A stretch of 41,099 bases of DNA from a virus (taxonomy: Duplodnaviria; Caudoviricetes): positions 1 through 41,099 of IMG/VR virus record IMGVR_UViG_3300024331_000005; one strand, 5' to 3'. How positions within the stretch are numbered: position 1 is the first letter of the stretch; each line of letters starts with the position of its first letter. Under the pieces are notes generated by a model, which saw nothing but the letters and a program-made list of their open reading frames with translations, ran no database searches and had not been told where the DNA came from. The position numbers and the translations under genes were made by a program. This document shows positions 6,452 through 38,231 of this stretch, piece after piece.

Positions 6452-6739
6452 CTATTGCTCCTTCTCTACTTCGTCAGCATTGAACACACAGAACAGTCGC
6501 GTGTTGTCTTCAAGCGCGATAAACCAATGATCTACGCCGCTATCAATCAGTTTCGCCTCACCTGCCTTGATGGTTCCCTTGAGTTCGCCATCTACAAAAT
6601 ATTCAGCCGATCCGCTACCGCACAGAGTAGGGTGTGAAACGTCATGGCGATGACGCGGCACGCCTTCGCCTTTCATCAGCACCGGAGAGCCGCGAAAATA
6701 AAACTTGCCGCAGAATTCGACGGTTTCTACGTTAGCCAT
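6452..6739 (-). CDS. Cupin-domain protein
   Basis: G..VPRHRHD.SH..LC.SGS and I.SG.DH.F.ALED metal-binding cupin motifs. Confidence 0.75.
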   Translation of the reverse strand: MANVETVEFCGKFYFRGSPVLMKGEGVPRHRHDVSHPTLCGSGSAEYFVDGELKGTIKAGEAKLIDSGVDHWFIALEDNTRLFCVFNADEVEKEQ

Positions 6740-7278
6740 GTCATCTCCGTTTTGATGCAAACAATCATCGCTATCCTGTTGCGTTTGCTATCGTTGTTTA
6801 CCCAATGCGGAATGTCGTTGCGGAATTCGTAGACTTCGCCCAAGTGCGGATGAATCGCCGCACCCTCCCATTCAAACGACGCGCCTGCGTCGTTTTGCAC
6901 CGGGACATAAAACTTGGAGTAATAGCCAGCATGCCATCCGCCATCCACATGCGGCTCGATGCGCCCGCCCGCAGGCACTTTCGTAATCAGCACGCCGCCC
7001 AATCGCTCGCCGTCAACCAGCGCCATCAGCCCAAACAGAATCGGCTTGAGTTCCGGCAGTTCGCGATAGGCCGGATACCACACGGAATCGTGTTCATCAT
7101 TGAAATTCGGCCCTAGGTTTTTGTAATCGTTATAGCGCACCCAAATATCCGACATGGCTGCATGTGCATACGTTTCCTGCCGCATCTTGCGCTCGCCGAA
7201 TAAATGCGTCTTTGCATTCAATGCAATTTGCAGATGCGAAACATCCAAGTCATCATAGATGCGGGCGAATGGCTTCAT
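6727..7278 (-). CDS. 2OG-Fe(II) oxygenase, aspartyl/asparaginyl beta-hydroxylase-like
   Basis: GGRIEPHVD (HxD) ... GEVYEFRNDIPHWVNN.S..NRIAMIV (distal His and Arg). Start MKPF at 7278 overlaps the upstream stop. Confidence 0.85.
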   Translation of the reverse strand: MKPFARIYDDLDVSHLQIALNAKTHLFGERKMRQETYAHAAMSDIWVRYNDYKNLGPNFNDEHDSVWYPAYRELPELKPILFGLMALVDGERLGGVLITKVPAGGRIEPHVDGGWHAGYYSKFYVPVQNDAGASFEWEGAAIHPHLGEVYEFRNDIPHWVNNDSKRNRIAMIVCIKTEMTWLT

Positions 7279-7535
7279 GCGACAGTCCCATCCGCAAGAA
7301 TCCACGTTACGCCATCTTTGGCTATCCAAATCGGTTTACCATGCGCGCCAAGCGACGTATCAAAATAAGTGCGCCCGATGAACAGGAATGTGGTGGGCCG
7401 CTGCGCCGTGGTGCCGCTAGAGGTCAAGCCAGAAAGCAGATTAAACACGGCAGAGAAAAACGATGCCCAGCCGGGATTCTGCATTTCCGCGCCTTGATCG
7501 ACTGCGCCGGATGGGGGCTTGTTTATCAGTGCCAT
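7275..7535 (-). CDS. Small tail-region protein
   Basis: Directly after the gp10-like gene; SGTTAQRPT..GRTYFDT.LG..KPIW....W..ADG motif seen in small tail proteins. Confidence 0.65.
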   Translation of the reverse strand: MALINKPPSGAVDQGAEMQNPGWASFFSAVFNLLSGLTSSGTTAQRPTTFLFIGRTYFDTSLGAHGKPIWIAKDGVTWILADGTVA

Positions 7536-9193: not shown

Positions 9194-9595
9194 TTAGCGC
9201 GGCGGATTTGGGTTAAGGCGAACTTTGAGTGGATCACCAGAAACAGAGATGGCGGCTATGTCTTGCTCGCGACAGAGAAGATATTGCTTTCCATCCAAAG
9301 TAATCGGCTCGCCGCCTGAGTTATAACGACCAAAAATCACCCAATCGCCTACTTTGAGCGATGTAGGTACAAGATGCCCATGCTGCGTATGTCCGGCTGC
9401 ATCCAAAAATGTGCTATAGATGCGTCCCGGCCCAACAGCTACAACGCGTCCGCTCGGAAATTTTGCCTCATCTCCTGGCAGAAAAATTCCTCCCTTGGAG
9501 ACTTCTTCTTTCAGTTGCTCGACAATCACAATATCGCTGATTGCGCGCAGCGGGAATTCTTCGGCCTGAGTAAGCGGGACAACATTGCTTTGCAT
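9194..9595 (-). CDS. groES: Co-chaperonin GroES (Cpn10)
   Basis: LRAISDIVIV..SKGGIFLP..GRVVAVGPG..LKVGDWVIF..Y..G..I.LDGKQYLL.RE.DI. Confidence 0.92.
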   Translation of the reverse strand: MQSNVVPLTQAEEFPLRAISDIVIVEQLKEEVSKGGIFLPGDEAKFPSGRVVAVGPGRIYSTFLDAAGHTQHGHLVPTSLKVGDWVIFGRYNSGGEPITLDGKQYLLCREQDIAAISVSGDPLKVRLNPNPPR

Positions 9596-20159: not shown

Positions 20160-21599
20160 TTAGTGAGCGCATTCAGTCTCATAAATCCCCCAAACCACAT
20201 CCGCAATCGCGTCCTGTCTTTCCCCGAAAAACTCCGCCTGCATCTGTTTCGCGCTCGGCATTTCCGGCATCCAGTGCGGGTGCTTGAGCAGCGTAACCAC
20301 GTTTTCGACGTATTCGCTCACCGTCTGCGCGATCAGGAATTCTTCTGGCATGCCGAAGCGCCGGATACGCATGGCAGCGATTCTCCCGGCTGTTTCATTC
20401 CCCTCAAGCGTAACAGTCGGCACGCCGCATAAAAAGCAATCTTGCACGCTGTTCGTGCCGCCGAATGGGAACGTATCGAGCGCGAGCGTACAGGTTGCCA
20501 AGCGGTCAAGGTAGGTCTGGTAATCCGTCTGCGGATGTACCGTAGCGCGCGGAAACCACTTCCGAATCTCGTAATCGACCATCGCATGCTGCAATCCCTG
20601 CTGGTTCGGGAAGAATACGAATTCCACATCGGGCCAGCGTTCGGCGATCTGTTGTAGGGCACGCATGAACGGCGGAATCAGCTTGGCAGCGATGGCTGGA
20701 ATTGCCACGCGGTTTTTCACTGGCTGATGCGCTGGCGGTATGCCGTCATTGCGCCTAATCGACGTAACGCTCCCATCCGGCAGCGCGACAACCTTTTCGG
20801 AATACATTGCGCGGTCGCCAATGAGCGATTCCTCAGTCAGCAGGTAATCAATGCATGGCGACTGCGAGGAGGCCGGATGACCGGGACACATGATCTGGAT
20901 CGGTGCGAGTCGCAGCGTAGACAGCGTAATCGTCCACGATGCCATACCGATGCTCGGGTAAAAAATGATATCCGGCGACTCTGCCAAGATCATCGCGGAT
21001 ATGTCGGCGAACTCCAATTCATCCTGCGGGATGTGCAGGATGCGCTCGAATACCTCAATCGCTAGATTATCGCTCGCGTCGCCGCCGTACATGCCGACCA
21101 GTTCAAAGCGTGTGCGTAACTGCTTAAGCATGGGCGCATAGCAGCGAAACATGCTGTGATTCGTAGAGAACCATTCGAGCGGGACAAGGATTTTCGGGCG
21201 CGCTTTCGGTTCAGCCTTGCGCTCGCACTCCGGCGTGTCCATGCTGGCGATTGCCATATCCCGAAACCACTTGTTCACCGTGCGCTTGATGGCGTGCTTG
21301 TCGGGCGCGTCGGTGTAGGTGCAGTACATGTAGATTTCGCCCGCGTTGCTCACGGCTTCGTGCGGAATGCCGTATTGCGCGAGTTCGGCATGCAGGGCCA
21401 TGAGTCGCAGGCGCTGCTCATACGCCTTGTCGCTGATGACTATGGGATCGCCTAACGCCTTGAGGATAGCGGCGAGTATGACGGCGGGATGCGGGCCGAT
21501 TGGGGCTACTAGCTTATCGTCAGGTGCGGTGCCGTCTGCGCTCATATTCGCCTGTGAAGCAGCGGCCCATGCTACTAGGCCGTAGCATGGAAGGGTCAT
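20160..21599 (-). CDS. HMW1C/NGT-like protein N-glycosyltransferase (CAZy GT41)
   Basis: YMYCTY..KH.IKR..N; LEWF...HSMFR; FYPSIGM..L...RLAPIQ...GHP.S..S..IDY; AAKLIP.F; Y..YL..L..C...L..FPFGGTN...D. These motifs are collinear with HMW1C/ApNGT. Confidence 0.9.
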   Translation of the reverse strand: MTLPCYGLVAWAAASQANMSADGTAPDDKLVAPIGPHPAVILAAILKALGDPIVISDKAYEQRLRLMALHAELAQYGIPHEAVSNAGEIYMYCTYTDAPDKHAIKRTVNKWFRDMAIASMDTPECERKAEPKARPKILVPLEWFSTNHSMFRCYAPMLKQLRTRFELVGMYGGDASDNLAIEVFERILHIPQDELEFADISAMILAESPDIIFYPSIGMASWTITLSTLRLAPIQIMCPGHPASSQSPCIDYLLTEESLIGDRAMYSEKVVALPDGSVTSIRRNDGIPPAHQPVKNRVAIPAIAAKLIPPFMRALQQIAERWPDVEFVFFPNQQGLQHAMVDYEIRKWFPRATVHPQTDYQTYLDRLATCTLALDTFPFGGTNSVQDCFLCGVPTVTLEGNETAGRIAAMRIRRFGMPEEFLIAQTVSEYVENVVTLLKHPHWMPEMPSAKQMQAEFFGERQDAIADVVWGIYETECAH

Positions 21600-37289: not shown

Positions 37290-37328
37290 TTTCAGGCACG
37301 CGCAGCCTTTGATGCGCAGGAGAAACAA

Positions 37329-37565
37329 GTGAAGAAAATCCGTATTTTGGACAAGACCGGCGACACCGAGATTGACTTCGATGATTCGGAAGTGACCGCA
37401 GAGGCGCGCGAACTGGCGCAGGCGGCATTTGAGAAGGCGCAGAAGGGTGGAACCGCCATCCTTACCAAACGGGCAGGCGGTGCGCCCGACAAGGTGATCC
37501 GCAGTTTCGGAGAAATCGAGGACCAGGCGGAGGCCATTTTCATTCCGGCGATTGTGGCGGGGTAA
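37329..37565 (+). CDS. Small protein with ubiquitin-like C-terminal tail (PAIVAG)
   Basis: AGGAG RBS; 78 aa; beta-beta-alpha-beta pattern; ends in a hydrophobic strand then P-x-x-x-A-G. Confidence 0.7.
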   Translation: MKKIRILDKTGDTEIDFDDSEVTAEARELAQAAFEKAQKGGTAILTKRAGGAPDKVIRSFGEIEDQAEAIFIPAIVAG

Positions 37566-37571
37566 GACTTC

Positions 37572-38231
37572 GTGTGGACGGGCGCTGTATTAGCCGCTCA
37601 AGCAGCCGTTGAGCATGAGCAAGGGCTGCGGCAGGCGCTCGCCAATCAGCAGGGGATACAGAATGCCGATCCATATGCGGCTTATCAAAATGCAGGTCAG
37701 GCAGCGAATGGACGACTAGGAGAACTATTAGGAATCAACGGAAATCCAGCGGATGTAGTTCGGATTGATACGCTATTCGGTTGGGCGATGCTTGCTCCGA
37801 TGGGTACTTTCATATCTGAAAACCCCGAAGCAAAAGCCAAGGCCGAAAAACTCCTCCTAGATCAACTAGACAAAGCACAGCGCGCCGAATACAAAGAATC
37901 GCAGCAATTCCACGTTAAATCCTGCAATGGGAAAATGTACAAGATTACCCGCAAGCGCAGTTTTAATGTTACCGGGCCGAAGGGTGAATGCTACTGCGGG
38001 CAGACGCCGGATACGCCGATTGAAGATCAAATGCTGGCGCAAAAGTTATTGCTTGAGCATGATCCGGAGAGGCTATTCAAAAATAGCAATAAATTGGCGG
38101 CGAATGGAATGTATGAAGCACTGATAAATGCGATTCCGACAATGTATGACGAAATTATTCGTCCAACGCCAGAACCTGACCCGCCACGTAGATTTAATTT
38201 CCCAATTAATCTGGTGCCGGGTCATGAGTGA
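37572..38231 (+). CDS. Partner protein: ejection-motif-like N-terminus plus Cys-containing domain
   Basis: A..LL...L...Q..EY.....F.V....G..Y.I.....NV....YC....P.ED.MLAQKL.LE.D...F...N. Confidence 0.7.
   Translation: MWTGAVLAAQAAVEHEQGLRQALANQQGIQNADPYAAYQNAGQAANGRLGELLGINGNPADVVRIDTLFGWAMLAPMGTFISENPEAKAKAEKLLLDQLDKAQRAEYKESQQFHVKSCNGKMYKITRKRSFNVTGPKGECYCGQTPDTPIEDQMLAQKLLLEHDPERLFKNSNKLAANGMYEALINAIPTMYDEIIRPTPEPDPPRRFNFPINLVPGHE

What the first reader, a model, noticed from the sequence alone, without database searches (positions are those of the whole stretch)
37329..38231. Two-gene module resembling a minimal ubiquitin-like modifier plus Cys-containing partner
Seen: a 78-aa protein (ILDKTGDT..F...G.A....I.SF...AEAIFIPAIVAG) ends in a beta-strand and a P-x-x-x-A-G tail. 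Six nt later comes a protein with NV..YC....P.ED.MLAQKL.LE. From unverified recollection, this gene pair recurs in phages and the small protein often ends in GG. Known: Ubl and sulfur-carrier proteins use an exposed C-terminal Gly, and bacterial Ubl conjugation (Bil, CBASS Cap2) acts in phage defence. Inference: this may be a phage-side conjugation or decoy system, with the partner Cys as acceptor. No E1 or JAB gene is visible in the genome.
Basis: inference. Interest (0 to 1): 0.72.

Follow-up and report, generated by a model that had tools for sequence, protein, structure and literature searches.

The report
Phage ubiquitin-like tag with mini-E2
This phage carries a widespread, unnamed gene pair, a small glycine-ended protein with a predicted ubiquitin-like shape and a partner with one invariant cysteine that is predicted to grip it, but no activating enzyme was found, so the pair likely works as a stripped-down protein-tagging kit that would borrow its activation from the host.

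Summary
Observation confirmed. ORF1 (78 aa) has beta-grasp strand order; 70 of 73 relatives end in Gly. ORF2's core weakly resembles a shrunken UBC/E2 fold: the top seven rows are all UBC-fold, best Z 4.7. Cys142 is kept in 144 of 144 relatives that reach it. The Ubl lies just upstream of 40 of 54 assessable cores, in phages, in 13 of 301 cellular genomes sampled and on a Bradyrhizobium plasmid. The predicted complex scores 0.84 against a best control of 0.00, with the Gly tail and the Cys both in the interface. No ThiF or JAB match was found in this complete 41-kb phage; 3 of 18 virus records have ThiF, in another operon where read (2 of 3). Best reading: a Ubl plus mini-E2 conjugation module charged by a host E1 (0.4). 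Rivals: non-covalent dimer or decoy (0.25), self-charging without E1 (0.2). No chemistry is shown. No family model or paper was found, but this scan reported what reads as the same pair on other DNA seven times.

The parts
37318..37323 (+). Ribosome-binding-site-like AGGAGA, 5 nt before the ORF1 start
   Evidence: read from the sequence
37329..37565 (+). ORF1, 78-aa ubiquitin-like protein with predicted beta-grasp topology and a free C-terminal Ala-Gly
   Evidence: AF2 pLDDT 87, order E-E-H-E-E-E; weak beta-grasp matches; Gly11 and Gly78 invariant in 34 aligned relatives
37545..37562 (+). Tail PAIVAG (residues 73-78), predicted to lie in the interface with ORF2
37572..38231 (+). ORF2, 219 aa: Ala/Gln/Asn-rich variable N-terminal part, E2-like core, variable tail
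37821..38096 (+). Conserved core of ORF2 (about residues 84-175), predicted minimal UBC/E2-like fold
   Evidence: AF2 pLDDT 85 (35); VIA-align top seven rows UBC-fold, Z 3.4-4.7 (42); conservation
37995..37997 (+). Codon for Cys142, the invariant cysteine and presumed nucleophile
   Evidence: 144 of 144 sequences that reach the column; within the predicted interface

Best explanation
ORF1 is a Gly-ended protein with predicted ubiquitin-like (beta-grasp) shape, ORF2 carries an invariant cysteine in a core predicted to be a shrunken E2, and the two are predicted to bind tail-to-active-site, so the pair likely forms a two-gene conjugation module that would be charged by a host ThiF/MoeB-type E1. 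Shown: the genes, their linkage, the invariant Gly and Cys, no E1 or JAB match in this phage. Predicted: the two folds and the 1:1 complex. Inferred and untested: (1) a host E1-like enzyme adenylates Gly78; (2) Cys142 takes the Ubl as a thioester; (3) ORF2 passes it to an amine on a target without an E3, the variable N-terminal part choosing the target or the location; (4) in this phage it acts early, being the last unit of the + strand gene run that holds the YqaJ-type exonuclease. The target is unknown.
For: Ubl: strand order of a beta-grasp; nearly all Foldseek rows are ubiquitin, MoaD, SUMO, RBD or PB1 domains, and so are most VIA rows, best Z 4.5, rmsd 4.7 over 72 residues. 70 of 73 distinct relatives stop at Gly (126), the free end that E1 adenylation needs (established knowledge). 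E2-like core: rows 1-7 of 48,161 chains are Ubc9 (Z 4.7, rmsd 2.9, 78 aligned), three RWD domains, VPS37A, a BRISC subunit and FANCL; further E2s and the Bub complex follow at Z 2.4-3.0. It lacks the C-terminal helices, as BubB and Cap2 E2 do (PMC11601596, Results). Cys142 144/144, Asp152 145/145, Lys158 145/145, Asn173 138/145, Asn132 121/129 (55). Complex: score 0.84, best of 3 controls 0.00; the mark was reached by 116 of 157 solved complexes and 2 of 215 mismatched pairs; runs agree in at least 98% of contacts; partner pLDDT at least 90. The interface sets Ubl residues 7-12, 42/44/46, 70 and 72-78 against ORF2 residues 142-149 and the helix 151-164, which recalls the closed E2~ubiquitin arrangement (recalled knowledge, not tested). 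Linkage: 40 of 54 assessable cores; 10 of 10 Ubl hits have a core within 0.6 kb downstream; 13 of 13 cellular loci; Ubl and core similarities track each other over 40 pairs, rho 0.56, 0 of 999 permutations (shared descent alone can give this). ThiF-family genes are common in hosts: over the cut-off in 11 of 14 control genomes.
Against: Both fold matches are weak: no Z of 5 or more; Foldseek found no E2 for the core; no sequence or profile match to ubiquitin, ThiS or E2 families. The Cys was not placed on the E2 catalytic Cys residue by residue, and a Cys142-Gly78 contact is not among the 25 best-predicted pairs. Many invariant residues lie in the interface, so plain binding could explain them. 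No E1 is linked at any pair locus read here, and ThiF/MoeB are not known to charge E2s (own knowledge). 12 of 54 cores have no Ubl nearby, and two records rated complete (G007, G015; 7 cores) gave no Ubl hit at all. The host is unknown.
Confidence: 0.4

Rival explanations
1. Tight non-covalent heterodimer or decoy: the Ubl caps or regulates the Cys protein, or the complex mimics a charged E2~Ubl and jams host Bil, Bub or CBASS-Cap2 enzymes, with no transfer to targets.
For: Large, confident predicted interface of about 90 contacts that includes most invariant residues of both proteins; no E1 or JAB travels with the pair; enriched in phages.
Against: An invariant Cys together with an invariant free Gly is more than binding needs. 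Single copies in cellular contigs among ordinary genes, with a hydrophobic N-terminal segment, fit a phage decoy poorly. Extra cores with different N-terminal parts in jumbo phages fit several targeting enzymes better.
Confidence: 0.25
2. Self-charging ligase with no E1 and no ATP: Cys142 attacks the bond before the last Gly (Ala77-Gly78), releases glycine, holds the Ubl as a thioester and transfers it, as the lone E2 of Serratia E2-CBASS does with cGAS.
For: Precedent: that E2 cuts after cGAS G406 and links without cofactors; G406A still links, Val or Leu do not (bioRxiv 10.1101/2022.05.25.493364, sections 3, 4, 6). Here the second-last residue is Gly, Ala or Ser in 68 of the 70 Gly-ended relatives. 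It explains the steady lack of E1 in phages, cells and plasmids. His follows the Cys by two residues in 58 of 144 (55), as His follows the Ser of BubB.
Against: In the precedent the conserved Gly is followed by a removable residue; here it is terminal in 70 of 73, and nothing obvious requires a leaving residue to be Gly. That E2 needs His87; this copy has Gln at Cys+2 and no His column is invariant.
Confidence: 0.2
3. Sulfur relay: the small protein is a ThiS/MoaD-type carrier whose C-terminus becomes a thiocarboxylate, and the partner Cys passes sulfur.
For: MoaD, TtuB and ThiS-like chains are among the weak fold matches; the nearest named Atlas cluster is ThiS-like at 0.79, a lead only.
Against: No thiamine, molybdopterin or thiolation gene was found in the window or seen beside the loci read; the partner resembles UBC, not rhodanese or MoaE; an E1 would still be needed.
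Confidence: 0.1
4. The resemblance to Ubl and E2 is a coincidence of small alpha/beta folds, and the pair is an unrelated heterodimer, for example a Cys enzyme with its inhibitor.
For: All structural Z-scores are under 5, a range that the tool notes may mean only a common arrangement.
Against: Two separate searches each converge on the fold expected from the other, and the tail meets the Cys strand in the predicted complex.
Confidence: 0.05

Closest known systems
Bil operons (BilA Ubl, BilB E2, BilC JAB, BilD E1), as described in PMC11601596 and PMC11601603
   Same: Beta-grasp protein with terminal Gly plus a Cys E2; no E3, the E2 is proposed to pick the target.
   Different: Bil carries its own E1 and JAB and is a host defence; this unit has two genes, is common in phages, and matches no PADLOC, NCBIfam or Pfam model.
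Bub operons (BubA, BubB, BubCD, BubE), PMC11601596
   Same: Diverged UBC fold without the C-terminal helices; nucleophile-x-His in many relatives; chains C and D of the Bub complex 9eav are weak matches to the two models (Z 3.4 and 2.7).
   Different: Bub uses Ser and Tyr oxyesters and encodes E1 and BubE; here the nucleophile is Cys and neither enzyme is linked. Profile comparison with 10 Prok-E2_E sequences: probability 0.3% (99).
Lone E2 of E2-CBASS (Serratia marcescens), bioRxiv 10.1101/2022.05.25.493364
   Same: An E2 encoded without E1 or JAB next to its Gly-tailed substrate.
   Different: Its substrate is a CD-NTase with a residue after the Gly, and it needs His87; here the substrate is a small Ubl that ends at Gly, with no cyclase or effector.
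Prokaryotic Ubl-E1-E2-JAB operon classes 6a-6d and phage TAPI of Iyer, Burroughs and Aravind 2006 (PMC1779556)
   Same: Class 6d E2s lack the classical His and keep a His after the Cys; TAPI is a phage Ubl with a conserved Gly.
   Different: The classes in the passages seen include E1-like and JAB genes; TAPI is a tail-assembly protein paired with JAB/NlpC. No two-gene Ubl plus E2 class appears in the passages seen.

Membership tests
Ubiquitin-like beta-grasp modifiers | beta-beta-alpha-beta-beta-beta topology | tested here: met
   AF2 model pLDDT 87: E2-6, E13-17, H21-38, E41-46, E55-57, E68-73 (27)
Ubiquitin-like beta-grasp modifiers | Clear structural superposition on a solved beta-grasp | tested here: inconclusive
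   Hits are mostly beta-grasp but best Z 4.5, rmsd 4.7; Foldseek E >= 0.045
Ubiquitin-like beta-grasp modifiers | Exposed C-terminal Gly | tested here: met
   70 of 73 relatives end in Gly; 3 run on after GG
Ubiquitin-like beta-grasp modifiers | Adenylation and covalent transfer | not testable with these tools
   needs biochemistry
E2 / UBC enzymes | UBC fold | tested here: inconclusive
   Rows 1-7 are UBC-fold, Z 3.4-4.7 (42); nothing relevant in Foldseek
E2 / UBC enzymes | Invariant Cys | tested here: met
   144 of 144 (55); also in the cellular and plasmid members read
E2 / UBC enzymes | Cys at the E2 catalytic position, next to the Ubl terminus | tested here: inconclusive
   Cys142 and Gly78 are both in the predicted interface, but no distance or residue-level superposition was given (135, 42)
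E2 / UBC enzymes | His-Pro-Asn motif of classical E2s (motif recalled) | tested here: not met
   Only Asn-Val is kept (Asn132 121 of 129); no His or Pro before it
E2 / UBC enzymes | Sequence match to UQ_con or Prok-E2 Pfam models | tested here: not met
   No such hit in 14 and 45 members; hhalign with Prok-E2_E members 0.3% (99)
Bil systems | Ubl, E2, JAB and E1 in one operon | tested here: not met
   No ThiF or JAB in the genome; no PADLOC hit
Bub systems | Ser-nucleophile E2 with a linked E1 | tested here: not met
   Cys, and no linked E1
E2-CBASS | CD-NTase substrate with a removable residue after Gly | tested here: not met
   Substrate candidate is a 78-aa Ubl ending at Gly; no cyclase among 66 window ORFs scanned
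E2-CBASS | E1- and ATP-independent charging | not testable with these tools
   needs purified proteins
ThiS/MoaD sulfur carriers | Pfam ThiS match or linkage to cofactor genes | tested here: not met
   No ThiS hit in 35 members; no such neighbours in the window
DUF7737 (lead from an earlier scan note) | Pfam PF24879 match | tested here: inconclusive
   Not among the 25 of 27 families shown for 45 members at E<=0.1, nor among the 9 for 14 members (125, 51)

The most novel reading that the evidence does not exclude
A two-gene, self-sufficient ubiquitin-like ligase: a roughly 95-residue E2 core charges itself with its own Ubl without E1 or ATP and tags targets chosen by swappable N-terminal modules, used by phages on host proteins and by bacteria at the membrane. 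It would be the smallest ubiquitination-like system known and a ready protein-ligation tool.
Probability: 0.2. Interest if true: 0.9.

Novelty: new variant of a known kind. Interest (0 to 1): 0.7.

Why it matters
The bacterial Ubl conjugation systems in the papers read here are host-side and either carry an E1 or tag a cyclase. A phage-borne Ubl plus mini-E2 with no E1 would mean that phages either hijack host sulfur-carrier activators for protein tagging or conjugate without ATP. Either would extend the ubiquitin-like arms race to the phage side and bear on how E2s arose. It is directly testable: both proteins are small, and a cultured soybean symbiont plasmid carries the pair (WLC03347.1 and WLC03346.1).

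Tried and rejected
Family scans gave nothing usable: Pfam, PHROGs, NCBIfam, PADLOC. The S100/calcyphosin and troponin hits in the PDB sequence searches are helix-composition noise and were rejected. Single-sequence scans of viral contigs found no relative; the ORF1 alignment was too variable for a pattern scan. Foldseek against the PDB and its second look gave nothing for the core. tblastn of the core against 50,697 phage records gave no match; only Rctr197k and one uncultured phage matched through other members; the primase and MazG hits (E >= 0.2) are chance. The ThiF and JAB genes of G002 and G009 were considered as the missing enzymes and set aside: they lie in a separate VWA-led operon with its own 89-aa Gly-tailed protein, which does not match ORF1; sharing of that E1 is not excluded. 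The in-frame Ubl-core fusion in G010 was not accepted as real: one extra base beside a TAATG overlap would explain it. The AG tail goes with Cys-Gly-Gln in 7 of 7 pairs, but these are one clade, so it is not counted as co-evolution. The promoter and terminator scan showed nothing above chance. 4 of 23 pattern matches held no core and were dropped.

Full report
Setting. The window is a whole virus record of 41,099 bases with direct terminal repeats, rated 100% complete. It encodes a P22-like coat, portal and terminase and a lysozyme. The pair is the last unit of the + strand run that starts after a Cro-like gene and holds a YqaJ-type exonuclease; it converges on the lysis genes. Early expression is an inference from this position. 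The host is unknown.

Observation. ORF1 37329-37565 (78 aa, ends PAIVAG) and ORF2 37572-38231 (219 aa) are as described, 6 nt apart. Neither has a credible match in Pfam, PHROGs, NCBIfam or PADLOC, nor do relatives.

The small protein. Searches gave 6 close and 32 wider hits; three rows of the latter (P0055, P0058, P0071) were left out of the alignments as a repeat protein and two truncated or frameshifted forms. Gly11 and the terminal Gly are invariant in 34 aligned members. Of 73 distinct members, 70 end in Gly (GG 44, AG 22, SG 2, PG 1, VG 1); three run on after GG. The AlphaFold model (pLDDT 87) has beta-grasp order. Foldseek's rows are nearly all ubiquitin, MoaD, SUMO, RBD and PB1 domains, but at E >= 0.045; VIA-align agrees, best Z 4.5, rmsd 4.7 over 72 residues, none at Z 5. 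It is a beta-grasp by topology, and a distant one.

The partner. Only residues 84-175 are conserved. Among 145 sequences Cys142 is present in 144 of 144 that reach it, Asp152 and Lys158 in 145 of 145, Asn173 in 138 of 145, Asn132 in 121 of 129. The set was gathered with words and a profile from this region, so the figures lean high. The model of residues 78-180 has pLDDT 85. Foldseek found nothing. The exhaustive comparison with 48,161 chains put UBC-fold proteins in rows 1-7: Ubc9 (Z 4.7, rmsd 2.9, 78 aligned), RWD domains of RWDD2, GCN2 and RWDD1, VPS37A, a BRISC subunit and FANCL; UBE2S, Ubc8, Ubc13, Atg10 and chain D of the Bub complex follow at Z 2.4-3.0 (assigning these chains to the UBC fold is own knowledge). 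The scores are in the range that may mean only a common arrangement; their agreement is the signal. No sequence link to E2s was found. What precedes the core varies: Ala/Gln/Asn-rich here, Thr-rich plus a charged helix in many phages, hydrophobic in most cellular copies (by eye).

Linkage. Over all pair loci held, 60 distinct cores were found; 6 had no room upstream. Of 54, 40 have the Ubl within 1.3 kb upstream, 2 nearby otherwise, 12 not. Three of the 40 were reached through the Ubl, and one is a second core behind the first. All 10 Ubl hits in 13 virus records have a core within 0.6 kb downstream. The 12 exceptions are extra cores: G008, G009, G010 and G011 have a linked pair elsewhere, but G007 (2 cores) and G015 (5 cores), both rated complete, gave no Ubl hit, which counts against an obligate partnership unless their Ubl is too divergent. 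The pair is also cellular: 13 of 301 genomes sampled from the phylum of G001, 13 of 13 with the Ubl directly upstream, and 13 Bradyrhizobium plasmids match the core; of the two read, one has the Ubl upstream and one downstream. Rctr197k has a Ubl and two cores; the two best viral fold matches have the same lengths as these. Similarities of Ubl and core track each other over 40 pairs (rho 0.56, 0 of 999 permutations), which shows joint inheritance, not co-evolution.

No dedicated activator. ThiF and Prok-JAB models find nothing in this genome while ringing in 14 and 11 of 14 controls. ThiF occurs in 3 of 18 virus records searched (G002, G007, G009; 3 of the 8 that are at least 90% complete). 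In G002 and G009 it belongs to another operon, VWA protein, unknown protein, JAB, an 89-aa Gly-tailed protein, ThiF, whose small protein does not match ORF1; G007's context was not read. Four ThiF queries found no other E1 in any pair locus, though the cellular loci have only 1.5 kb flanks.

Predicted complex. ESMFold2 with both alignments scored 0.84, best of 3 controls 0.00; the mark was reached by 116 of 157 solved complexes and 2 of 215 mismatched pairs, counts that hold only roughly with own alignments; the runs agree in at least 98% of contacts and the partner's pLDDT is at least 90. This supports binding and does not show it; likeness to solved E2-Ubl complexes could lift the score. The interface joins Ubl residues 5, 7-12, 42, 44, 46, 54-56, 70 and 72-78 to ORF2 residues 84-98 (in part), 130, 142-149, 151-164 (in part) and 167-173 (in part). 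The beta1-beta2 loop, beta3 and beta5 packing on the helix after the Cys recalls the closed E2~ubiquitin state (recalled, not tested). Cys142 and Gly78 are both in the interface, but their contact is not among the 25 best pairs and no distance was given.

Mechanism. The parts fit a Ubl and its E2. The open step is activation. A free terminal Gly in 70 of 73 favours adenylation by an E1, which would have to be the host's (0.4). The steady absence of E1 and the small second-last residue (Gly, Ala or Ser in 68 of 70) keep self-charging open (0.2); the lone Serratia E2 does this with cGAS, but cuts after its conserved Gly and needs a His that this copy lacks. A non-covalent dimer or decoy (0.25) is not excluded, since the interface accounts for much of the conservation. 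Sulfur relay (0.1) lacks pathway neighbours.

Comparison and novelty. It works like Bil, Bub or E2-CBASS in outline and is a member of none: no linked E1 or JAB, Cys rather than Ser, no cyclase. Seen: PMC11601596 (abstract, first third of Results, Discussion), bioRxiv 10.1101/2022.05.25.493364 (abstract and sections 3, 4, 6), PMC1779556 (12 passages), PMC11601603 (9 passages); others as search listings only. Eight searches showed no description of such a pair. The library lacks most subscription papers, and no supplements were read; the operon tables of these papers could list it. Earlier notes of this scan describe what reads as the same pair in seven other genomes; they are unchecked AI notes, gave no sequence match to this copy, and are not counted as support.

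Verdict. A real, widespread, unnamed two-gene module with converging but individually weak structural evidence for Ubl plus minimal E2, a strong predicted complex, and no linked activator. New variant of a known kind; interest 0.7; chemistry and target untested.

Noticed in passing
L039:8061-12767 (G002) and L045:43-4891 (G009): A separate jumbo-phage operon: VWA protein, a 311-385 aa protein with a C-terminal Cys segment that looks E2-like by eye, JAB, an 89-aa protein ending PFG or PFGK, and ThiF; HNH inserted in G002. It looks like a full phage-encoded Ubl cascade, unrelated in sequence to this pair.
   Followed up: partly
L050:7899-9207 (G011): A second, divergent pair 2.5 kb after the first: a GG-ended ORF (E 0.061 to the Ubl profile) and a core with Cys-Met-His (E 2e-5).
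   Followed up: no
L055:3454-9887 (G015): Five divergent cores within 6.5 kb in a 72-kb phage rated complete, with no Ubl hit.
   Followed up: partly
L061:2873-6126 (G009): One Ubl followed by two cores in tandem, with a third core on the opposite strand just upstream.
   Followed up: partly
L068:646-1722 (G010): Ubl and core in one reading frame; may be a real fusion as in BubAB or a one-base error at a TAATG overlap.
   Followed up: partly
L026:106-417; L058 and L059:6702-7013: Ubls capped after GG by Asn or Ser-Arg, which would need trimming or be cut by the partner.
   Followed up: no
L100:3309-7971 (Rctr197k, KX853510.1): A 143-aa Ubl with an N-terminal extension, ending PG, two cores downstream, and an annotated CRISPR repeat region 1.2 kb upstream.
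   Followed up: partly
viral fold library row A0A2L0UZL2: A 397-aa protein of the cultured jumbo phage Atu_ph07 matches the core's fold (TM 0.63, E 0.015); its neighbourhood was not read.
   Followed up: no
L001:21-4537: The pair lies shortly upstream of terminase-like and portal-like genes here, a different setting from the window's.
   Followed up: no
window 20160-21599 (-): 479-aa protein with Glyco_transf_41 and weak HMW1C-like matches, a possible protein glycosyltransferase.
   Followed up: no
window 6452-7329 (-) and 9194-9595 (-): A cupin and a weak Asp/Asn beta-hydroxylase match side by side among virion genes, and a Cpn10 co-chaperonin.
   Followed up: no
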